Source of the DNA: a virus
Lineage: Duplodnaviria; Caudoviricetes
Reading direction: 5' to 3' (one strand)
DNA length: 64,000 bases
Virus record (IMG/VR): IMGVR_UViG_3300033067_002502
Coordinates: 1 to 64,000 of that record
The position numbers and the translations under genes were made by a program. Below are positions 2,841 through 55,069 of the stretch, in pieces. How positions within the stretch are numbered: the stretch's first letter is position 1; each line of letters begins with the position of its first letter. The notes under the pieces were generated by a model, which had not been told where the DNA came from, did not search any database, and saw nothing but the letters and a program-made list of their open reading frames with translations.

Positions 2841-2870
2841 ATCTTTCGGTTCTTGAGTAGTATTTCCTCT
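2841..2870 (-). promoter_or_regulatory. AGG-N18-GAA promoter of the nucleotidyltransferase gene
   Basis: AGAGG-N18-GAAAGAT on the minus strand. Confidence 0.55.
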
Positions 2871-2959
2871 ATATTTATAAAAAGATTTACACAACATAAG
2901 TGAAAGCAAAATGTTTTAAAGATTCTTTGTCGATTATCTTTGGTTACAAGAAAGTAAAA

Positions 2960-3880
2960 ATGCAAAATAATGAAATAACATACCCAGATCAAGAAAAATC
3001 ACATGAAGCATTTAAAGTACACAAAGTCCTAGATGCAGGCTTTGTAAGGCTTGTTGACTGCATGCCTAGTCCTACAGATCCAGAGTCTATAACTGCTGAT
3101 GCTGCTATGGTTCAAGCAGCAAGAGTAAGCTATGGTAAAGGGACAAAAACAATTAATGAAGATGCTGGCCTTATTAGTTATCTTATAAAGAATAGACATA
3201 CAACTCCATTAGAAATGGTTGAAATGAAATTCCACTGTAGAATGCCCATGTTTATTGCTCGTCAATGGATTCGTCATAGAACTGCAAGTGTAAATGAATA
3301 TTCGGCACGATACTCTCAAGTTCCAGACTTAGCATATATACCAGATTCTTCTAGAGTTCTAGGTCAAAGCAAAACAAATAAACAAAACTCTTCTGGAAGT
3401 CTTGACTCTCAGGTTGTTTCTGATTTTATAGGAAGACTAGAAACAGTTTCTTCTGAAGCTCATGGAGATTATGAAGAATTTCTTGAAAAAGGAGTTTCAA
3501 GAGAAACAGCAAGAATGTTCCTTCCTGTAAATTTTTATACAGAATGGTATTGGAAAATAGACATGCATAATTTATTTCATTTCTTATCTCTTAGAGCAGA
3601 TTCTCATGCTCAATATGAGATAAGAGTATATGCTGAAAAAATGCTTGATATTTGTAAACAAATAGCTCCAATAGCAACAGAAGCTTTTATTAATCATAGA
3701 ATGAATTCTGTAACATTTTCAGGAGATGAGCTTGATATTATAAGAAGTCTTATGATAAAAGATTCAAAAGAAGTTCAAACAAAGTTAGACGATATAATGA
3801 CTAGTAGAAACTGGAGTATTCGTCGTAAAAAAGAATTTACATCCAATCTATCAAAGATAGTTGTAGATTTACAGAAATAA
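2960..3880 (+). CDS. thyX: flavin-dependent thymidylate synthase
   Basis: RHRTASVNEYSARY signature, AARVSY, HAQYEIR. Start at MQNN downstream of GTCGATT. Confidence 0.97.
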   Translation: MQNNEITYPDQEKSHEAFKVHKVLDAGFVRLVDCMPSPTDPESITADAAMVQAARVSYGKGTKTINEDAGLISYLIKNRHTTPLEMVEMKFHCRMPMFIARQWIRHRTASVNEYSARYSQVPDLAYIPDSSRVLGQSKTNKQNSSGSLDSQVVSDFIGRLETVSSEAHGDYEEFLEKGVSRETARMFLPVNFYTEWYWKIDMHNLFHFLSLRADSHAQYEIRVYAEKMLDICKQIAPIATEAFINHRMNSVTFSGDELDIIRSLMIKDSKEVQTKLDDIMTSRNWSIRRKKEFTSNLSKIVVDLQK

Positions 3881-17460: not shown

Positions 17461-17997
17461 ATGAGTACTAAAATTGGAGACAAAACTCCAGCACAAGCGC
17501 ATAATGATTTATTATATATTCCTAATGAAAATAACGGATTAGATTCTACTGTTCGTTCTGTTTACAGTGGAAATGGAATTGAGTCTCCATTAAAAATAGG
17601 AACTGGAGGTATTGAGGCTAATTTCGGTAAAGGACTTTTAATTAAACCTCTTATTGATTCTTGTCATTATAAATGTACAGATCACGGAGAAATATCTGGT
17701 TCTTATCAGTTAAGTACAACTGGTGGTAATATTCAAAAAATAAAACTAGTAGGTAGTACAACTTTGTCTATATTAAGTAATTTAGAATCTTCTAGTGCTT
17801 TTGAATTAATTCTTATTATAGAGAAAGGATCTCTTAGTAGTACTCTTTCTTTTTTAGATAGCTCTTATAAATTAGATTCAGATTCAGGTTCTCTTGGGTT
17901 GTCGTCCGCTATTGGTGCTATAGATATTGTTCGCTTTTTTACTTATAATGGAGGTCAAACGTGGCTTGTCTACAAAGACGGTCCAAGTTTTGTATAA
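17461..17997 (+). CDS. putative virion/fibre-tip protein
   Basis: G/S/T-rich; C-terminal DIVRFFTYNGGQTW resembles phage fibre tips. Confidence 0.5.
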   Translation: MSTKIGDKTPAQAHNDLLYIPNENNGLDSTVRSVYSGNGIESPLKIGTGGIEANFGKGLLIKPLIDSCHYKCTDHGEISGSYQLSTTGGNIQKIKLVGSTTLSILSNLESSSAFELILIIEKGSLSSTLSFLDSSYKLDSDSGSLGLSSAIGAIDIVRFFTYNGGQTWLVYKDGPSFV

Positions 17998-17998
17998 T

Positions 17999-20900
17999 AT
18001 GGCAAAAGAAAAAAAACAGAAAATAGAAACAAAGATAGATCCTTTTAAGGAATTAAGATCTAAAATTAAAACAGAATCTCAAGTTTCTGTAAAAATGCCA
18101 AGCATTTTAGACTTTGTAGACAGTGATGATTTTTTAGGACTTACACACTCAAACCCTCCTATACATCTTTATGATTTACAAAAATTAGTATTAAAGTGTT
18201 TCTATAGAGGAAGTGATGGTAATGAAAACTTAACTCTATCTCCCGAAGATATAATTCTTATTGAAAAAAATAAACTTAATGAAGTTTCTAACGGATGCCT
18301 TTTAGATAAATGGAAATCAGGAAATCATTTTAGAGAGCTTGTTCTTGTTTGGGGAAGGCGTTGTTTATCTGAAAATTCAGAAATAGTTGATACAGAAACA
18401 GGAAAAGTTTGGCAATTGGGAGAATTGTGGAATTACGGTAAAAAAGATATATCTTCTTGGACTTATGATGAATCTTTGAAGAAGATGATTAATATTAGTG
18501 GATGCAATCTTGTTTATCAGGGTAAAAGAGAAGTTTTTAAAATTCAAACAGTTTCTGGACACGAAATAGAAGCAACAGATAATCACCCAATGATGACAGA
18601 CAAGGGATGGGTTGAAGTTAAAAATCTTAGACCAAAAGATAAAATTGCGATATCTTTATCTCAACCTTTTTTTGGAAGTAGTAACGAACTAAAAGAAGAC
18701 GAAGCTTCTATTCTTGGATACTTAAGTAGTAATTCTTTTGATTCAACAAGTTGTTATATATCAACTATATTGAATGATGGAGATGTTTTTGAAGATTTTA
18801 AGAAAAAAGCAGCAAGCATAAGTAGTGAAATTAAAATAGAATCAGCAGATAATTATAACATAAAATCTAATAATGAAAAAAAATACAATTATGTTATTGC
18901 TCAAAAAGCAACAGCAGAAAATTCAGAAGATTCTAACATTATAACTTTTATTAAGAATAATGGATTAAAAAACAAAACAGGAGATCAGAAATTTGTTCCA
19001 ACTAGAATATTTACTTCTCCTAAAAAGATTGTTGCTTCTTATCTAAGATCTCTTTTTAGTTGCGATAATTATGTATCTTTTTCTAATATATCAAGATTTA
19101 GTTCGAAAATTGAAATATTTTTTAGTAGTTTAGTTTTAGTTAAACAAGTTCAGCATCTCTTGTCAAGGTTTGGTATTTTTTCATCTTTTCAATCTAAATT
19201 AGTAAATAAAAAGACTGAGCATATATTATCTATTTCAAAAAATTCTTATGTTAAATTATTTGTAAATGAAATAGGGTTTATTGGTAAAAAAGAATTTGAA
19301 AAAGAGGTAAAAGAAAATGTAGAAATAGATAGCGATTTTAGTCCTATCGTTTTTTCTCCAATATTTTCAATAAAGAAAATAGGAATTAAAAAAACTTTTG
19401 ATTTGCAAGTTTCTGACAAAGATTATTTACAAAATTTTGTTTCTAATGGGTTTATTTGCCACAATTGTATATCTGAAGATGGAATTCTTACTGACGCAAG
19501 GACTGGAGAACGCTTTACATTTAAACAAGCCTGGGAACAAGAAAAGATAGTTTCTTCTTGGACTTACGATGAAAATAAAAATCAAATGGTGATTGTTGAT
19601 GATTGTAATATCATTAAACAAGAACGTAGGATGGTTTATAAAATAACAGATTCTTTTGGTAATCAAATTGAAGTTACTGACAATCATCCTTTTTTAACAC
19701 AAAGAGGGTGGGTTGAAACAAAAGATCTACAAACAGGAGATAGTTTTAGCATTTCAACAACACTTCCTTTATCTTTTGGAAATTCTGATGCTATATCTGA
19801 AAATGAAGCTGCTATTTTAGGATACATAACCGGAGATGGCTGTTGTTCTAAAGGTTCTGTGTTTTTTACAGCAAAAAATGAAGAGATTCGAAAAGATCTT
19901 GAAAGTAGGTTGAATTTATTAAGTGATAATTTAGAAATTGTTCAAGATATTTGGACTAAAGCTGATAGTAAAAAATATGCTTATAAAGTTCGTTCAAAAA
20001 ATATAGAATATGAGAATTTTAAAGAAGAATCAGTATTGCGGACAAAAACTCGTAGGAAGAAAAATGATTTAGTAAAACTTCTTGAAAAACATGATTTAAT
20101 GGGAAAAACTTGCCACGACAAGTGTGTTCCAAATTTGTTATGGAATTGTCCAAAGAACGTTATTGCTGCATATTTAAAACACTTATTTAGTTGTGACGGA
20201 TGGGTTATGCTTAAAAAGGTAAAAAACAAAGTCTTTCCTTGTATAGGCTTTGCAACATCAAATGGAAGACAAGCTATTGCAGTTGCTCAATTATTAAGTA
20301 AATTTGGTATTATTTGCAATATAAGGAAAAAGAAATGCAATACAAAAATATTTACTGAAGGGAAATTGTATGAATATAAAAATACATCAAGTTTTGAATT
20401 GTATTTTTTAAAAAGAGACTATATACTTTTATTTATTGATAAAATCGGATTTATTGGTAAAGACAAAAATACAATAAATCAAGTAAAAATGTTAGCAGAA
20501 AAAACAAAAGGAAATATAACTAAATGCAAAAATACAATATTTACTGATTTTGTTAGCAAGGAAAGCTTAGAAGAAAAACAAACTTTTGATTTACAAGTTA
20601 GTGATCAAAAGCATTTACAAAATTTTGTATGTAATAACTATATAGTTTCGAACTCGGGAAAAGACTTCCTAACATCTATTATAGCATTATATGAAGCAAT
20701 GAGGCTACTAGAAACTCCTGGAGGCAATCCTTATAAGACGTACAATCTTGCATCTGCAACTCCTTTTACAATTCTAACTATAGCAAATTCTTCAACTCAA
20801 GCTCAAGTCCTTTTTAGAGAAATTAAAGATAAAGTCTTAAGAAGTGATTATTTTAAAGATAAAATTATTCCAGAAGGTGTTACTTCTGACTCAATCCACT

Positions 20901-22201
20901 TTTTAACACCAGAAGATAAAAGAAGAAACGAAGAACTTGTTTCTCAAGGGCATTCTCCCGGCCTTGGTTCTATTGTTGTTAAATCAGGTCATAGTAATTC
21001 TGACTCTTTGGTAGGTATTTCTTGTTATGTTTTATTATTGGACGAAATAGGTTTGTATAAAAACACAGCAGGATCTTCTTCTGGAGATGCTATTTATAAC
21101 TCTCTTGGACCAGCTGTTAAAACATATGTTAGAGAAGTTCCTAAATTAGATTCTAATTGTAAGCCTATTATTGGAGATAATGGCGTTGCTGTTACGGAAA
21201 AAATTTATGATGGTAAAATAATTTGTCTTTCGACACCGAGAGGCAAGGGTGGCATCTTCTTTGAGCTTTATAACAATCATCAAGAAGTAAACCATAGATT
21301 AGTTTGTAGGGCTGCAACTTGGCAAGTTAACCCAATGCAAACAAAAGAAGGATTAATGGCTTCTTTTCCAGATATGCCAGAAGAAAAATTTAGTATGGAA
21401 TTTGGAGCAGAATTTTCTGGAACAGCAGGTGTTAACTTCTTTAATGAAACAGATGTTGATTATTGTTTTCAAGATAAGTCGTTGAAATTTAGAGATTTTG
21501 GAGTTCCTGGTATGTTTTATTTTGCTCATTTAGATCCAGCAACTTCTAGCCATAATTACGCATTGGTTCTTGCTCATAAAGAGGTTTATTTTGATTTTGA
21601 AGCTCATAAAAGAGAATGGAAGATTGTAGTAGATCATATAAAATATTGGAGTCCTTCTCCTAACAATCCAATATCTGTAGAAGAAGTAGATAATTATGTT
21701 GCCGATTTGAACTTTAAATTTTGTATAGGACTTGTTACTTATGATCATTTTAACAGTCAGACAAGTATTGTAAAATTAAGAAAAAAAGGAATACCAACAA
21801 AAATGACTGCTTATACAAAGCAGTATAAAAATATTATATATGATAATTTATATCAATTAGTAATTCAAAAAAGATTATGTATACCAAATCATCTTCTTTT
21901 AAAGAACGAAATGAAGAGTTTACAAAGAAAATATACAGATAATGGATATAAGGTTTATCCTAAAAAAGATGGAGATGTAACAACAGACGACATTACTGAC
22001 GCATTAGCTGGTGCTTGTTATAATTGTATAGAAAAAGAATTAAATAGACTTCCGCAAGGAAAATTGGTATCACTTCCAGTACAAGGTACTAGTGATATAG
22101 TCTGGAGGTCCATGTCTGGGCAACCATACGGAGTTGGTTCAGGTCAGCAGGTTGCTAAGAAAATGGAAGAAAGGTCTTCACTTTATAGAAGAGGAATGTA
22201 A
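17999..22201 (+). CDS. terL: terminase large subunit with two tandem inteins
   Basis: Spliced Walker A LVWGRR|SGKD, Walker B LLLDEIG, coupling motif LSTP, nuclease motifs HLDPA, TYD and DDITDALAG. Confidence 0.92.
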   Translation: MAKEKKQKIETKIDPFKELRSKIKTESQVSVKMPSILDFVDSDDFLGLTHSNPPIHLYDLQKLVLKCFYRGSDGNENLTLSPEDIILIEKNKLNEVSNGCLLDKWKSGNHFRELVLVWGRRCLSENSEIVDTETGKVWQLGELWNYGKKDISSWTYDESLKKMINISGCNLVYQGKREVFKIQTVSGHEIEATDNHPMMTDKGWVEVKNLRPKDKIAISLSQPFFGSSNELKEDEASILGYLSSNSFDSTSCYISTILNDGDVFEDFKKKAASISSEIKIESADNYNIKSNNEKKYNYVIAQKATAENSEDSNIITFIKNNGLKNKTGDQKFVPTRIFTSPKKIVASYLRSLFSCDNYVSFSNISRFSSKIEIFFSSLVLVKQVQHLLSRFGIFSSFQSKLVNKKTEHILSISKNSYVKLFVNEIGFIGKKEFEKEVKENVEIDSDFSPIVFSPIFSIKKIGIKKTFDLQVSDKDYLQNFVSNGFICHNCISEDGILTDARTGERFTFKQAWEQEKIVSSWTYDENKNQMVIVDDCNIIKQERRMVYKITDSFGNQIEVTDNHPFLTQRGWVETKDLQTGDSFSISTTLPLSFGNSDAISENEAAILGYITGDGCCSKGSVFFTAKNEEIRKDLESRLNLLSDNLEIVQDIWTKADSKKYAYKVRSKNIEYENFKEESVLRTKTRRKKNDLVKLLEKHDLMGKTCHDKCVPNLLWNCPKNVIAAYLKHLFSCDGWVMLKKVKNKVFPCIGFATSNGRQAIAVAQLLSKFGIICNIRKKKCNTKIFTEGKLYEYKNTSSFELYFLKRDYILLFIDKIGFIGKDKNTINQVKMLAEKTKGNITKCKNTIFTDFVSKESLEEKQTFDLQVSDQKHLQNFVCNNYIVSNSGKDFLTSIIALYEAMRLLETPGGNPYKTYNLASATPFTILTIANSSTQAQVLFREIKDKVLRSDYFKDKIIPEGVTSDSIHFLTPEDKRRNEELVSQGHSPGLGSIVVKSGHSNSDSLVGISCYVLLLDEIGLYKNTAGSSSGDAIYNSLGPAVKTYVREVPKLDSNCKPIIGDNGVAVTEKIYDGKIICLSTPRGKGGIFFELYNNHQEVNHRLVCRAATWQVNPMQTKEGLMASFPDMPEEKFSMEFGAEFSGTAGVNFFNETDVDYCFQDKSLKFRDFGVPGMFYFAHLDPATSSHNYALVLAHKEVYFDFEAHKREWKIVVDHIKYWSPSPNNPISVEEVDNYVADLNFKFCIGLVTYDHFNSQTSIVKLRKKGIPTKMTAYTKQYKNIIYDNLYQLVIQKRLCIPNHLLLKNEMKSLQRKYTDNGYKVYPKKDGDVTTDDITDALAGACYNCIEKELNRLPQGKLVSLPVQGTSDIVWRSMSGQPYGVGSGQQVAKKMEERSSLYRRGM
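18362..19465 (+). mobile_element. terminase intein 1 (368 aa, degenerate LAGLIDADG)
   Basis: Starts CLSENS, block B TDNHP, ends FICHN; LAGLIDADG-position motifs ILGYLSSNS and LFSCDN are eroded. Confidence 0.92.
19466..20653 (+). mobile_element. terminase intein 2 (396 aa, LAGLIDADG)
   Basis: Starts CISEDG, TDNHP, ILGYITGDG, LFSCDG, ends YIVSN followed by Ser. Confidence 0.92.
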
Positions 22202-33327: not shown

Positions 33328-36300
33328 ATGGCTGAAAATCAAGGAAAACCAATTAAAATGCAGTTACCTACTAAAAAAGTATCTGCTACTATTTTGGCCT
33401 CTAAAGGAAATGTTATAAAAGACGGCAATGCTGCTAATCTTAATAATTACGCAGGATCTACTGTTCTTACTTTTCCTATTACAAAAAATTCTCAGTTTGC
33501 AGGTTCTGGTGCTAATGTTACAATGACTCAGCCTATGTTCTTTTCTCCACTGCACACTCCTCAAAACTGGCAGATTGCAAGTAAAAGAAAAGAAGTTTAT
33601 CAATGGGCAAGACATTATTACGAAAATGAACCAAAAGTTGCTGCAGGTATAGATTTTTATTCCCAATTCCCAATTAACGGAATGAAATTAACTTGTAAGA
33701 AAAAAAGCGTTATGAGATTTTATGAAAGACTTGTAGAAAAAGTAGATCTCATGTATTGGCTTAGAATGATAAGTCACCAAAGATTTCTTCTTGGTGATGT
33801 TTATGTTATGACGGAAATAGAATGCCCTCATTGTAAAGGAAGCGGCATTGATAAAGAAAGCGGAGAAAATTGCAATCATCCAGATGGAACAATAGGAAGA
33901 GTTACAGTTCTTAATCCTGATTGGATTGAAGTTATGAAAACTCCTATTTCTCAAGAACCTCAAATTGTTCTTTTGCCAGATGAGGAAATTCAAAAGATTA
34001 TTCAAACGAAACAGCCAAAATTTTTATATGATCAGATTCCAGATAATATAAAGATGCAAATTATGGCTAAAAAACCAATTCTTTTATCAAATAGAGTTAC
34101 AAGTCATATAAAGCACGGAGGAGTTCCTTATGGAACATATGGAGAGTCTTTACTTCGTCGCTTGTTTACGAGTCTTGCATACAAAACAAAATTAATGACA
34201 GCAAACTGGATTGTTGCAGAAAGGCTAATCCTCCCTGTTCGTATTGTGAAGGTTGGTTCTGATGAACGTCCAGCAGATGATGAAGCAATTGCAGATATGT
34301 CTTCTCAATTATCTGCTGTTGCAAACGATCCAAATCTTACAATCGTAACTCATAATAATGTTGAATATGAATGGTACGGGGCCTGCCAGGATAATTTAAC
34401 AGAAATTCTAACTTACAATGGTTGGAAATTGTTTAAAGATATTAGTAAAGATGAGATAGTGTCTACTTATAATAAAGACTCTGGTTTTATGCAATGGCAG
34501 CAAATACAAAAGTATCATGAATATGATTTTAAGTCAACAGAAACTCTTAAAATGATTGATTTTAAATCGAGAGGAGTTGATATTAGAGTAACTCCTAATC
34601 ATAGAATGCTTGTTCAGAGAGATGACAAATGGATTGAGGTTTTGTCTCAAGAAGTTAAGCATGGCGATAAGTTTTTAAATAATATTAATTGGCAAGGATA
34701 TTTTCCAGAAGTATTACAGTACAAAGATAGTCCTTTATCTCATCTTGTTCTTGATGATTATTTAGAATTTGTTGGCTATTATTTAAGTGAAGGCGGAGTT
34801 AAGAGAGAAACAAAACGAAATCTTTCTGTAGATAAACAAATACAAGCATGTTCTGTTGGACAAAATAGAAATAGTCCAATTTATTCTTCTATGAAAGATG
34901 TTGTAGAATTGGTTTATCCTAATTTTTCTGAAACAAAAGATGATCGAGGAAATGACACTTTTTGCAATTTTACTATTAATAATGTAAAAATTGCAAGATA
35001 TATGGCTGAAGAATTTGGCTCTAAATCTTCTGAAAAGAAAATTCCTACTTGGGTTCTTAATCTTCCTAAAAATAAATTAAAAATAGTTTATGATGCAATG
35101 ATGGCTGGAGATGGAGATTTAAGAAATGATAATATTAAACCAAGATATAGGTATACAACTACATCTAAGAATCTTTCTAATGCTTTTTCTGAAATAGTAT
35201 TAAAACTCGGGTATTTTTCATCTACATGTTTAGAAAAAGCAAAAAACGAAAGATGCAATGATATTTATAGAATTTATTGGTCAGAAGATCGAGTTGAGAC
35301 TCCTTTTGAAATAAGAAATCAACATATTTCTAGAACTGATTATGACGGTAAAGTTTATTGCGTAACTGTTCCTAATGGTTTTATAATTACTCGTCGTAAC
35401 GGAAGAATTACAGTTCAGGGTAATAGTGGAAAGATTCATAACATTAATGCAGAATTAGAATTTGTTGGTAAAGAAATTCTTGATGGATTGATGTTAAATC
35501 AAACTCTTTTAAATGGAGAAATGGCTGGCTATAACTCTGCTCAAGTTGGAGTTGAAGTTATGATTCGTCGTCTTGAGTCTTGGAGAAATGAGCTTGCTCA
35601 GTGGATTGAGAAAAATATTTTCTTACCAGTTGCTAAGATGCAAGGATTTATTGATGAAGAAGAAACAAAAGAATTCAACGAGACAACTTATCTTTATCCA
35701 AGAATTAAGTGGAATGATTTACGTCTTAGAGACAATACAAACCAACTTCAGATGTATTTGCAAATGCAACAATCTGGGTTAATATCAGCCCAAACTCTTC
35801 TTGAAGAATTTGATCTTGATTATGATTTAGAAGTTGAAAGAATAAGAGAAGAACAAGTTCAAGCTATGCAAAACGGAATGTTAGCTGGAGGTCAAGGAGC
35901 TGGTGGCGGTGGAGGAGGAATGGGTGGCGGTGGTGGTGGAGGCGGATCTCCAGGTGGTGCAGCTGGTGGAATGGATATGGGCATGGGTGGAGGAGGAGCT
36001 CCAGGAATGGATGGAGGTATGGGCGGAGCTCCAGGAATGGATGGAGGTATGGGCGGAGCTCCAGGTGGGGCTCCAGGTGGAATGGGAGCAGCAGCCGGTG
36101 GATCTCCTCAGAAGATATACAGAAAAGGAAAAGGTCCAAAAGAGGAAGAGGTAGCTCCTGTAAGACAAACAACGCTTCAATTAACAAAACCAGAATCAAA
36201 AATGTATAGAACATTAAATGCAATGTCTTTGCCATTTAGATTATTTGCTCAATATAAGCAACCAGTTCCAAATGATTCTAATTTTTATTTAATGGATTTT

Positions 36301-52954: not shown

Positions 52955-55069
52955 ATGCAAGATATTGAAATAACAGTAGAGATAAGCACTAAAGACAGAT
53001 ATTTTACAACTCTCCCTATGTGCTTAGCAAGTATTGCTAATCAGACGTATAAGCCTAAAAAAATACTTATATTTGATGATGGAGAGCATAAAGACCTAAG
53101 ACAAGAGCCTATTTATATTAATTTATTTGCTTTGTATCAATCAAAAGGTATTGAATTTGAAGTTATTTTTGGTCAAAAAAAGGGGCAAGTTCATAATCAT
53201 CAAGCGGCTATTTATTTAGCAAAAACAGATTGGATTTGGAGGTGCTTTAGAGGTAATCAAAAAGTAGAAACGATTAATGGTTTAAAAAATATAAGAGATA
53301 TAGAAATTGGAGAGTTAGTAAAAACTCATAAAGGAAGATATAAAAAAGTTATAAGAACATATAAACAAGATTATGAGCCTAAAAAAGAATTGCTTTGGAT
53401 TTATACAAAAAATTCTGTTATAAAGTGTACCCCAGATCATCCTTTTTTAATCTTAAAAGATAATAAAAGAGTATGGACTAAAGCTTCTAATTTAAATGAA
53501 AGCTCTATTTTACTTTATCCTTGTTCTGATAAAAAAGATGAAATAAATTTTGACTGTTTTGGAAGAGGAGCAAAATACAATAAATTGCTACATTATTCTG
53601 GAAAAAACTTTAAAAATGAATATTTTGGCAAATTTAGTGTTGATGAAGATTTGGCTAGATTTTTTGGATTATATCTTGCCGAGGGCTGCGGAGGACATGA
53701 CTCTATTAGATTTACCTTTAATAATAAAGAAAAAGAATTTATTGATTTTATAATTAAAGTTTGTAAAGAAAAATTCAATAGAAATCCTACCGTTCATTCA
53801 AGATGGGCAACCTGTGTAAAATTAAATATACGAAGTTTTGCGAAAAAATTTACTGAATGGTTTGGAGATGATGCAACAAATAAAAAAGTACCTGATTTTG
53901 TTTTTGATTGGTCTTTAAAGAATAAATTGGCCTTTTTACAAGGATATCTTGATGGAGATGGATGGCAAAATCAAAAGATGTATCGCTTTGGAACTGCTAG
54001 TAAGGATTTATTTAATGGTATAAAAAAATTATGCATAGAAAGCGGATTAGACTGTACTGATGCTCACGAGACAGGTCCAAAAGAGACACAAAGTTTGGGT
54101 GTAAAAATAAAATCAAGCGGATGTCTTTCTGGAGCTATAAGTTCTATTGGTTATAGTAAAATGCAAGATATAATACAATCAAAGATTGTTGACAATTGTT
54201 GTATTATACCTATTAATAGGATTGAAAATAAAAAAATGCCAACAGTTAACTGGAAAGACGATCAGTATGTTTATAATCTTGAAGTTGAAGAGGATAATTC
54301 TTATATTGTAGGTCCGTGTATTTGTCATAATTGCGATGATGATGATTTTCCAGAACCTAATTGTCTTGAAGAAATGATTAAAAGCATAAATGAAGAAGTT
54401 GGGGCAATAGGGCCTCTTGTTTTAGATCCAAAAGAAAAAATAATGAATAGTGAAATATGTTCTAGTAAAATAGAGCATATTTATACTCATATGAACATTC
54501 AATGGTCTAATCTTAAAGAAATAAAAGAAGTAGATCATCTTAATAATACTTTTTTGTTTAGAAAAAAAGCAGCATTAGATGCCGGTGGGTATTGTTTAGA
54601 CTTAAGCCCTGTTGGTCACAGAGAAGAGACTTTATTTACATATCAAATTAAAAGAGATGGCTATAAAGTGCTAGTGAATCCAGGTGCTATTGTTTGGCAC
54701 TTAAGGAATCCAAGTGGAGGAATTAGATCTTATGAGCATTCTTTTTTTTGGGAACATGACGAAAAAGTATTTTTACAAAAATTAAGAGATTTTGGAGTAA
54801 AAATAGATAAATTAATTATCTTAAATTGCGGTCTTGGGGATCATTTTGCATTTAAAATGATATTACCTGAATTAAAAAATAGATACAATTTAACTTTATC
54901 TGTTTGCTATCCAGAAGTTTTTAAGAATGACGATGATTTAAATATTATTTCAATACAAGATGCTATGAAAATTGAAAAAAGCATAGACAACCATAGTGTT
55001 TATTTATTTATGATTAAAAATAATTGGAAAGGAACGATTGTTGACGCTTTTAGAAAGATGTTATTATGA
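52955..55069 (+). CDS. GT2 (GT-A) glycosyltransferase with intein; C-terminal GT9-like fragment
   Basis: STKDR, SIANQT, IFDDG, spliced WIWR|CDDDD, HREET, VWHL; C-terminal GLGDHF. Confidence 0.85.
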   Translation: MQDIEITVEISTKDRYFTTLPMCLASIANQTYKPKKILIFDDGEHKDLRQEPIYINLFALYQSKGIEFEVIFGQKKGQVHNHQAAIYLAKTDWIWRCFRGNQKVETINGLKNIRDIEIGELVKTHKGRYKKVIRTYKQDYEPKKELLWIYTKNSVIKCTPDHPFLILKDNKRVWTKASNLNESSILLYPCSDKKDEINFDCFGRGAKYNKLLHYSGKNFKNEYFGKFSVDEDLARFFGLYLAEGCGGHDSIRFTFNNKEKEFIDFIIKVCKEKFNRNPTVHSRWATCVKLNIRSFAKKFTEWFGDDATNKKVPDFVFDWSLKNKLAFLQGYLDGDGWQNQKMYRFGTASKDLFNGIKKLCIESGLDCTDAHETGPKETQSLGVKIKSSGCLSGAISSIGYSKMQDIIQSKIVDNCCIIPINRIENKKMPTVNWKDDQYVYNLEVEEDNSYIVGPCICHNCDDDDFPEPNCLEEMIKSINEEVGAIGPLVLDPKEKIMNSEICSSKIEHIYTHMNIQWSNLKEIKEVDHLNNTFLFRKKAALDAGGYCLDLSPVGHREETLFTYQIKRDGYKVLVNPGAIVWHLRNPSGGIRSYEHSFFWEHDEKVFLQKLRDFGVKIDKLIILNCGLGDHFAFKMILPELKNRYNLTLSVCYPEVFKNDDDLNIISIQDAMKIEKSIDNHSVYLFMIKNNWKGTIVDAFRKMLL
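53243..54331 (+). mobile_element. glycosyltransferase intein (363 aa, LAGLIDADG)
   Basis: CFRGNQKV, CTPDHPF, GLYLAEG, GYLDGDG, VYNLEVEEDNSY...CHN|C. Confidence 0.93.

What the first reader, a model, noticed from the sequence alone, without database searches (positions are those of the whole stretch)
18362..20653. Two paralogous inteins back-to-back with zero extein residues inside the terminase Walker A
Seen: GRR|CLSEN...FICHN|CISED...YIVSN|SGKD. The +1 nucleophile of intein 1 is Cys1 of intein 2, and removing both (368+396 aa) restores GRRSGK. The two are clear paralogues (SSWTYDE, TDNHP-x2-T-x2-GWVE-x-K-x-L, EA-x-ILGY, LFSCD, TFDLQVSD-x3-LQNFV). Intein 1 has eroded LAGLIDADG motifs but a canonical HN end; intein 2 has intact motifs but an SN end. 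Known: an intein normally destroys its own homing site, so double occupancy of one site is unexpected. Inference: tandem duplication or re-invasion. Splicing could be ordered, competitive for the shared Cys, or a single excision using the N-half of intein 1 and the C-half of intein 2, and any of these would gate DNA packaging.
Basis: partly seen in the sequence, partly recalled or inferred. Interest (0 to 1): 0.8.

Follow-up and report, generated by a model that had tools for sequence, protein, structure and literature searches.

The report
Two inteins end-to-end in terminase
The DNA-packaging enzyme gene of this very large uncultivated phage is interrupted, at one codon boundary inside its ATP-binding loop, by two different self-splicing inteins joined directly end to end; related phages share the layout, which I found described in no paper and which shows that a second intein can settle in a site that is already occupied.

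Summary
One open frame (17999-22201) reads N-extein ...WGRR, intein 1 (18362-19465, 368 aa), intein 2 (19466-20653, 396 aa), then SGKD... Intein-free homologues read WGRRSGKD at this point.

It is not an assembly chimera. Five further intact tandem alleles, plus one frameshifted contig, come from independent datasets. All have the same order and the same HN|C junction.

It is not an in-situ duplication. Intein 1 belongs to the resident intein clade, which all 21 single-intein close relatives also carry. That clade has mostly lost the first LAGLIDADG catalytic Asp. Intein 2 belongs to a different deep clade, which sits alone at the same site in distant terminases. Its endonuclease motifs are intact. 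An AU test rejects the duplication topology (p=0.0004).

The six second inteins form one clade. One of them conflicts with its extein tree, which points to lateral movement.

All splicing residues at all three junctions are invariant, so I infer stepwise splicing of both inteins. This is not shown. The idea that intein 2 homes into occupied alleles is a hypothesis.

I found no published precedent. This scan noted the same layout earlier in a related genome (e1-5361047). It is a new variant of a known kind.

The parts
17999..18361 (+). TerL N-extein (121 aa), ending in the first half of the Walker A, ...VLVWGRR
   Evidence: ORF. The ATG at 17999 lies one base after the upstream stop and matches the MAxxxK start of homologues. 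It aligns with the N-termini of homologous TerLs.
18362..19465 (+). Intein 1 (368 aa): the resident, clade-A, class-1 intein. It has Cys1, block B TDNHP (18575-18589), block F TFDLQVSD (19394-19417) and a terminal HN. LAGLIDADG motif 1 is degenerate (GYLSSNSF, 18710-18739) and motif 2 reads LFSCDNY (19040-19075).
   Evidence: It is orthologous (61-66% identity) to the sole intein of 11 related viral contigs and 21 close homologues.
19463..19468 (+). Intein-intein junction AAT|TGT: the terminal Asn368 of intein 1 is followed directly by Cys1 of intein 2, which is also the +1 nucleophile of intein 1.
   Evidence: H-N-C is invariant in all six tandem alleles (H377, N378, C379).
19466..20653 (+). 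Intein 2 (396 aa): the later arrival, clade-B, class-1 intein. It has Cys1, block B TDNHP (19676-19690), an intact LAGLIDADG motif 1 GYITGDG (19814-19843) and motif 2 LFSCDGW (20171-20206), block F TFDLQVSD (20582-20605) and a terminal SN.
   Evidence: Its closest relatives are the second inteins of the five other tandem alleles (50-70% identity), then single inteins at the same site of distant TerLs.
20654..22201 (+). TerL C-extein (515 aa plus stop). It starts with Ser+1 (TCG) and the rest of the Walker A (SGKD), followed by the remainder of the ATPase domain and the nuclease domain.
   Evidence: PHROG phrog_9 and phrog_2699, large terminase. tblastn to actinophage terminases, E about 1e-23. 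An intein-free homologue folds as HK97, T4 and Sf6 TerL.

Best explanation
This is a real, heritable pair of class-1 LAGLIDADG inteins joined head to tail at one codon boundary (GRR|SGKD) in the Walker A of the large terminase of a jumbo phage.

Intein 1 is the long-resident occupant of the site in this phage clade, and its homing endonuclease has decayed. Intein 2 comes from a different, deeply diverged branch of the same family of terminase P-loop inteins. It entered an allele that already held intein 1, landing exactly between intein 1's terminal Asn and Ser+1. It therefore kept its native C-extein junction and exchanged its N-extein for intein 1.

The pair has since been inherited for a long time. 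Intein 2 has been lost from some lineages and has been laterally exchanged at least once.

To make an active ATPase, both inteins must splice. I infer that each does its own chemistry, in two successive splicing reactions.

If intein 1 goes first, its trans-thioesterification moves the N-extein onto Cys1 of intein 2. After Asn368 cyclises, the product is chemically the same linear thioester that intein 2 forms in its own first step, so the acyl group could be relayed on to Ser+1. If intein 2 goes first, the product is the ordinary single-intein precursor seen in the relatives.

Shown here: the architecture, its recurrence, the separate ancestry of the two inteins, the state of the motifs, and the conflict between the intein and extein trees. 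Inferred: splicing competence, the order of splicing, and the relay.
For: - Architecture: one ORF with exact boundaries.
- Both inserts pass Pfam Intein_splicing and LAGLIDADG_3.
- The AF2 model of the cassette has pLDDT 82.8 and matches TliVMA, PI-PfuI and PI-SceI. Mini-inteins align over about 373-380 columns, which is within one intein.
- Recurrence: P0004-P0008 come from ENA, Logan and JGI samples and have the same order and junctions. L022 is a seventh, frameshifted copy.
- All 11 related viral contigs and all 21 close single-intein alleles carry only the intein-1 type.
- Ancestry: the intein tree has two deep clades (support 100). The first inteins fall in clade A among the singles. The second inteins form one clade (100/100) inside clade B. 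An AU test rejects the in-situ duplication topology, p=0.00044.
- Tree conflict: the intein-2 data reject {P0004,P0006,P0007} (p=2e-8). The extein data support that group at 100/100 and reject {win,P0004,P0005} (p=0.0016).
- Endonuclease state: GDG in 6/6 and CDG in 5/6 second inteins. The motif-1 Asp is lost in 11/13 clade-A inteins. Identity in the HEN region is 59% for intein 2 against 44-46% for intein 1.
- Splicing residues C1, T..H, block-F Asp, the terminal Asn, the HN|C junction and Ser+1 are invariant across the six alleles.
- Extein: terminase fold, and WGRRSGKD uninterrupted in 131 intein-free alleles.
Against: - There are no protein data. Splicing, its order and the relay are inferred from conserved residues only.
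- Intein 2 has a non-canonical penultimate residue (Ser here; Lys or His in relatives). Its C-terminal splicing region is its least conserved part (55%), so its Asn cyclisation could be slow.
- The AF2 model has low confidence at the junction (residues 379-383, pLDDT below 50). I had no coordinates or PAE to inspect.
- The backbone of the extein tree is weakly resolved. One gain with several losses cannot be told apart from several gains.
- The AU groups were named after the trees had been seen.
- The Ser+1 codon pattern (TCN against AGY) gave no clean co-conversion signal.
Confidence: 0.8

Rival explanations
1. Assembly chimera: two single-intein alleles (one with intein 1, one with intein 2) from a mixed population were joined wrongly by the assembler.
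For: The window comes from a metagenome-derived viral contig. I could not inspect reads.
Against: The same junction occurs in five other intact genes from independent assemblies and samples. These are only 50-70% identical in intein 2, so they are not copies of one error. A seventh contig also carries it. No intein-2-only allele exists among the close relatives to act as a parent. The junction is in frame with no duplicated or missing extein codon.
Confidence: 0.01
2. In-situ tandem duplication of the resident intein, after which the two copies diverged to 33% identity.
For: The two inteins are homologous along their whole length and share the same site.
Against: Intein 2 groups with single inteins of distant terminases (clade B), not with intein 1 of the same or related phages. 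Forcing the first inteins, second inteins and close singles into one clade costs 93.6 log-likelihood units, p-AU 0.00044. All 21 close single alleles would each need to have lost the same copy precisely.
Confidence: 0.04
3. Composite excision: the pair acts as one 764-aa intein. Only intein 1's N-terminal Cys and intein 2's C-terminal Asn are used, and the internal junction is chemically idle.
For: The two inteins are paralogues, so the N-lobe of one and the C-lobe of the other might complement each other. The outer junctions alone would suffice to ligate GRR to SGKD.
Against: The internal HN|C, intein 1's blocks F/G (72% identity) and intein 2's blocks A/B (70%) are the best conserved parts. 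The catalytic residues there are invariant in six alleles whose HEN regions have diverged to about 37-70% identity. In the AF2 model, Foldseek aligns mini-inteins within single inteins and not across the pair.

Caveat: intein 1 may also be kept functional by time spent in single-intein alleles.
Confidence: 0.1
4. Dead end: the doubly interrupted terminase does not mature, and the contig represents a defective phage.
For: Double occupancy might be expected to impair splicing. One related contig (L022) is frameshifted.
Against: Six intact ORFs with all catalytic residues have been kept through deep divergence (extein 65-83% identity, intein 2 52-74%). A dead essential gene would not persist in this way. 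In L022 the neighbouring genes are also fragmented, which points to sequencing errors.
Confidence: 0.03

Closest known systems
Canonical class-1 inteins with a LAGLIDADG homing endonuclease (PI-SceI/Sce VMA1, PI-PfuI, TliVMA and PhoVMA; PDB 1vde, 1dq3, 7qsu, 7qst)
   Same: Each of the two elements has Cys1, block B T-x-x-H, the block F Asp, a terminal Asn, a Cys or Ser at +1, and a HINT fold with an inserted LAGLIDADG domain. Both pass the Pfam models, and the AF2 model matches these structures.
   Different: Here the C-extein of one intein is another intein, and the N-extein of the second is the first. One Cys serves both as +1 nucleophile and as Cys1. Intein 2 has Ser rather than His before the terminal Asn. 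Both inteins have Gln where block F usually has His (LQNF).
Terminase P-loop inteins of actinobacteriophages (TerL1-a and TerL1-b sites, Kelley et al. 2016, PMC5050341; survey by Gosselin et al., bioRxiv 10.1101/2025.01.02.630785)
   Same: Inteins sit in the Walker A of the large terminase. Several intein lineages compete for nearly the same position: sites a and b are 1 residue apart. Intein and extein trees conflict there too.
   Different: Those are single occupants of distinct sites in different phages. Neither paper, as far as I searched it, describes two inteins with no extein residue between them. The site here is GRR|SGK, upstream of the classic GK|T insertion.
'Double inteins' at the neighbouring MCM-a and MCM-d sites of Haloferacales (Turgeman-Grott et al. 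2023, PMC10643990)
   Same: Two HEN-bearing inteins lie close together in one essential P-loop ATPase gene. The double state arises mainly by invasion of singly occupied alleles. Single alleles are common alongside doubles.
   Different: The MCM inteins occupy distinct sites separated by extein sequence, and each recognises its own part of the gene. Here the two share one codon boundary, so the newcomer's left flank is the resident intein itself.
Engineered tandem or multi-intein constructs and split-intein relays
   Same: Successive splicing reactions pass one polypeptide through two inteins.
   Different: Those are artificial or split (trans) systems. This is a natural, contiguous, cis arrangement.

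Membership tests
Class-1 intein (both elements) | N-terminal Cys/Ser nucleophile (block A) | tested here: met
   Cys1 is present in both inteins and invariant in six tandem alleles (C11, C379).
Class-1 intein (both elements) | Block B T-x-x-H | tested here: met
   TDNHP in both. The Thr and His are invariant (T82/H85, T449/H452).
Class-1 intein (both elements) | C-terminal Asn followed by Cys/Ser/Thr at +1; penultimate His is usual | tested here: met
   Intein 1 ends HN|C. Intein 2 ends SN|S. The penultimate His is absent from intein 2 here (Ser) and is Lys in three relatives. This is an accessory residue, not a defining one.
Class-1 intein (both elements) | HINT fold / Pfam Intein_splicing | tested here: met
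   PF14890 at 58.1 and 47.6 bits against a cut-off of 35.8. The AF2 model matches solved inteins, TM 0.69-0.90 normalised to the target.
Class-1 intein (both elements) | Actual protein splicing | not testable with these tools
   Inferred only, from conserved catalytic residues and the persistence of an essential gene.
LAGLIDADG homing endonuclease (active) | Two LAGLIDADG motifs, each ending in a catalytic acidic residue | tested here: met
   Intein 2 has GYITGDG and LFSCDGW. These are conserved in 6/6 and 5/6 second inteins. Cleavage activity and the target site were not tested.
LAGLIDADG homing endonuclease (active) | The same feature, for intein 1 | tested here: not met
   Motif 1 reads GYLSSNSF, with Asn in place of Asp. 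The acidic residue is lost in 11 of 13 close clade-A inteins. The domain fold is retained (PF14528).
Phage large terminase (TerL) | ATPase plus RNase-H-like nuclease two-domain fold, and a Walker A | tested here: met
   PHROG 9 and 2699. The intein-free homologue P0256 was modelled at pLDDT 82; Foldseek gives HK97 TerL at 3e-17, plus T4 gp17, Sf6 gp2 and the G20c nuclease. WGRRSGKD aligns with LGRQSGKS of P74-26 (weak). The residue after GK is Asp, not Ser/Thr.

The most novel reading that the evidence does not exclude
The second-intein lineage may be a 'second-order' homing element. Its still-intact LAGLIDADG endonuclease would no longer target the empty GRR|SGK site. It would target the occupied allele instead, that is, the junction between the highly conserved last codons of the resident intein (…NGFICHN) and the C-extein. 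This would let it spread in a phage population where the site is already fixed for a dead intein.

At the protein level the pair may splice as an acyl relay: intein 1's branch resolution delivers the N-extein as the thioester that intein 2 needs for its own second step.

Consistent with this:
- the single origin and long stem branch of the second-intein clade;
- its intact HEN motifs after deep divergence;
- the absence of intein-2-only and empty alleles among close relatives;
- the intein/extein tree conflict for P0004.

Not excluded: vertical inheritance with losses, with the HEN retained for other reasons.
Probability: 0.35. Interest if true: 0.85.

Novelty: new variant of a known kind. Interest (0 to 1): 0.7.

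Why it matters
Homing theory assumes that an occupied site is immune to further invasion, because insertion destroys the endonuclease target. A conserved natural pair of inteins at one codon boundary shows that an occupied site can be taken a second time.

It also gives a concrete system in which to ask three questions. How do rival inteins compete or cooperate? Can a homing endonuclease be retargeted to an intein-extein junction? How do two splicing active sites that share one cysteine avoid dead-end cleavage?

For phage biology, the packaging ATPase cannot form its P-loop until two separate autocatalytic reactions are complete.

For protein engineering, a natural zero-linker tandem could inspire sequential or relay splicing designs.

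Tried and rejected
- Megablast of the gene against GenBank phages found no match.
- A peptide-pattern scan of viral contigs with intein 2 alone found only a distant 25% hit. A metagenome-contig scan with the intein-2 alignment found nothing that tblastn confirmed. The homologues came instead from the protein searches.
- Pfam-A had no significant hit for the exteins in my copy. Sequence searches of the PDB with a single sequence or a profile gave only sub-threshold terminase hits. The terminase assignment therefore rests on PHROGs, tblastn and the fold search.
- I tested the Ser+1 codon as a co-conversion marker. TCN occurs in 3 of 4 tandem loci and in the single allele P0020. AGY occurs in all 11 single viral loci, in P0021 and in P0046. 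This is suggestive of shared history within the subclade but inconclusive, so I did not use it as evidence.
- I could not get DNA for P0004 and P0007 because the sample files are too large.
- AF2 coordinates and PAE were not available to me, so I could not measure inter-lobe contacts or junction geometry.
- Four full-text literature searches and targeted reading of four intein papers turned up no natural zero-extein tandem. The library lacks most subscription journals, so absence there is not proof.
- I considered and rejected the assembly chimera, in-situ duplication and pseudogene readings (see the rival explanations).

Full report
**Observation.** A single open frame runs from 17927 to 22201 on the + strand. 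The likely start is the ATG at 17999. It lies one base after the upstream stop and gives the MAKEKK N-terminus that matches homologues.

The frame reads ...VLVWGRR, then a 368-aa CLSEN...FICHN (18362-19465), then a 396-aa CISED...YIVSN (19466-20653), then SGKDF.... The two inserts are 33% identical over their full length, BLASTP E 3e-62. Each passes Pfam Intein_splicing and LAGLIDADG_3.

**The host protein.** The C-extein matches PHROG large-terminase families and actinophage terminases at about 24% identity, E about 1e-23. I parsed 231 homologues. Of these, 131 have no insert and read VLVWGRRSGKDF without interruption, 84 have one full-size intein at that boundary, 10 have a mini-intein, and 6 have two.

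An intein-free homologue (P0256, 60% identical in the C-extein) was modelled at pLDDT 82. Its fold matches HK97, T4 and Sf6 large terminases and the G20c nuclease domain, Foldseek E down to 3e-17. A profile search aligns vLvwGRRsgkdf with the LGRQSGKS stretch of P74-26 TerL (by my own knowledge its Walker A); this is weak on its own. The site is therefore the Walker A, upstream of the GK.

The record is a 170-kb IMG/VR contig that CheckV rates 34% complete. Relatives lie on contigs of up to about 500 kb. This is a jumbo phage.

**Not an artefact.** A search with the whole protein found five more proteins of 1384-1406 aa (P0004-P0008). They come from ENA, Logan and JGI assemblies of different samples. 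Each has the same plan: GRR | intein-1 type ending HN | intein-2 type starting C[IV]S | SGKD, with no residue in between. Their second inteins are only 50-70% identical to the window's, so these are diverged relatives and not copies of one error. Gene order around TerL is also the same.

A seventh contig (L022) carries the ...FICHN|CISEDG... junction. It is riddled with frameshifts, in neighbouring genes as well.

Among the close relatives there is no intein-2-only allele that could have been one parent of a chimera.

**Where the two inteins come from.** All 11 related viral contigs (C-extein 72-84% identical) carry a single intein, CLSE...ICHN|SGKD. It is 61-65% identical to intein 1 and 36-40% identical to intein 2.

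A tree of 91 P-loop inteins from this TerL family splits into two deep clades (support 100):
- Clade A holds all six first inteins, scattered among the single inteins of the 21 close relatives.
- Clade B holds single inteins of distant terminases, plus all six second inteins as one clade (100/100) on a long stem.

Forcing the first inteins, second inteins and close singles together, which is the in-situ duplication topology, is rejected: delta lnL 93.6, p-AU 0.00044. Intein 1 is therefore the resident. Intein 2 arrived from another branch of the same family of site-specific inteins. This is re-invasion of an occupied site, not duplication.

**History after arrival.** In the extein tree all six tandem alleles fall in one 13-member subclade (SH-aLRT 91), mixed with seven intein-1-only alleles. 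This fits one gain followed by several losses of intein 2, or several gains. The backbone is too weak to decide.

Divergence among tandem alleles is deep:
- exteins 65-83% identity;
- second inteins 52-74%;
- first inteins 45-59%.

The arrangement is therefore old and mostly inherited vertically. There is one clear conflict. The exteins group P0004 with P0006 and P0007 (100/100) and reject grouping it with the window and P0005 (p-AU 0.0016). The second inteins do the opposite: {window, P0004, P0005} at 100/99, and the extein grouping is rejected at p=2e-8. So intein 2 has moved or recombined between lineages at least once. These groups were named after the trees had been seen.

**State of the endonucleases.** All six second inteins keep GYITGDG. 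Five of the six keep CDG in the second motif; P0008 has CNG. Eleven of 13 close clade-A inteins have lost the acidic residue of motif 1; the window's intein 1 has GYLSSNSF. Mean pairwise identity in the endonuclease region is 59% for second inteins against 44-46% for first inteins.

A nuclease preserved through this much divergence suggests it still has a job. In this clade the only alleles available to cut are intein-1-occupied ones. That is the basis for the hypothesis that intein 2 homes to the junction between intein 1 and the C-extein. I rate it at about 0.35. It is untested.

**How it probably works.** The following are invariant across the six tandem alleles:
- Cys1, block B Thr and His, the block F Asp and the terminal His-Asn of intein 1;
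- Cys1, block B Thr and His, the block F Asp and the terminal Asn of intein 2;
- Ser+1.

The splicing lobes that flank the internal junction are among the best conserved segments. The AF2 model of the cassette (pLDDT 82.8) matches full-length HEN inteins. Mini-inteins align over about 375 columns, which is within one intein and not across the pair.

I therefore infer two successive class-1 splicing reactions rather than one composite excision.

If intein 1 acts first, the N-extein is passed to the thiol of intein 2's Cys1. After Asn368 cyclises, this species is chemically the same as intein 2's own step-1 thioester, so a relay to Ser+1 is possible.

If intein 2 acts first, the product is the single-intein precursor that the relatives use, with Ser at +1.

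One possible conflict needs kinetic control. Intein 2's N-S shift would activate the very bond that intein 1's Asn attacks, which would cause uncoupled cleavage. None of this is shown.

**Comparison with what is known.**
- Terminase P-loop inteins are well known. In mycobacteriophages two TerL sites lie one residue apart, but in different phages (PMC5050341).
- Double inteins at nearby but separate MCM sites mostly arise by invasion of singly occupied alleles (PMC10643990).
- A recent survey of actinophage inteins that highlights unusual architectures does not mention tandem inteins.
- Four full-text searches found no natural pair with zero intervening extein residues. The library is incomplete.
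- This scan noted the same layout earlier in a related genome (e1-5361047). My independent search agrees with that note.

**Verdict.** The feature is real and conserved. It is best described as a new variant of a known kind: canonical inteins in an arrangement not described before. New in this analysis are the separate ancestry of the two inteins, the dead and live state of their endonucleases, and the signal of lateral exchange.

Noticed in passing
G000:C1:149343-152912 (same genome, outside the window; L021 343-3912): An AAA+ ATPase is encoded in two ORFs. ORF1 ends ...GLPG|CVLGNTK... (about 23 aa of intein N-piece, then a stop). About 140 nt later, ORF2 starts with an intein C-piece ending ...IISHN|CGKSLT, which completes the P-loop. 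This looks like an atypically split intein with a short IntN. ORF2 also holds a full LAGLIDADG intein (...VAP|CVSGES...FLCHN|CILWADEIE) just before Walker B.
   Followed up: partly
window 34450-35376 and 53321-54331; also G000:C1 near 161.6, 164.7 and 165.7 kb: Further Pfam Intein_splicing hits in the portal ORF and in a 727-aa ORF, plus weaker hits elsewhere in the genome. This is an unusually intein-rich phage genome.
   Followed up: no
L022 (IMGVR_UViG_3300045125_000158), 2852-3424 and onward: A seventh tandem allele with the junction ...NGFICHN|CISEDGVL..., but TerL and the neighbouring genes are broken across frames. This is probably an error-prone assembly rather than a pseudogene.
   Followed up: partly
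homologues P0027, P0073 (C-extein about residue 367-380) and P0041, P0053, P0058, P0060, P0072 (C-extein about residue 447): The same TerL family has at least two more intein insertion sites in the C-extein, so some alleles carry two inteins at separate sites. Mini-intein alleles of about 150 aa (P0069, P0071) also occupy the Walker A site.
   Followed up: partly
window 20654-20665 and alignment A1: The Walker A of this TerL family reads GRRSGKD. Asp, not Ser or Thr, follows the invariant Lys and is nearly invariant across 43 intein-free homologues. This is unusual for a P-loop.
   Followed up: no
window 20654-20656; L003-L020 junctions: The Ser+1 codon is TCN in the window, L016, L017 and the single allele L018. 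It is AGY in all 11 single-intein viral loci and in L015, L019 and L020. The two codon classes are two mutations apart, so this may mark shared history or co-conversion, but the pattern is not clean.
   Followed up: yes
window 17948-17998: The public gene call for this protein (P0003, 1417 aa) starts 17 codons upstream of the ATG at 17999 and overlaps the preceding gene. Homologue N-termini support 17999.
   Followed up: partly
samples ERR9973194 and ERR9973195: A tandem allele (P0005) and a single-intein allele from the tandem subclade (P0020) come from runs with adjacent accession numbers. The two states may therefore co-occur in one study site.
   Followed up: no
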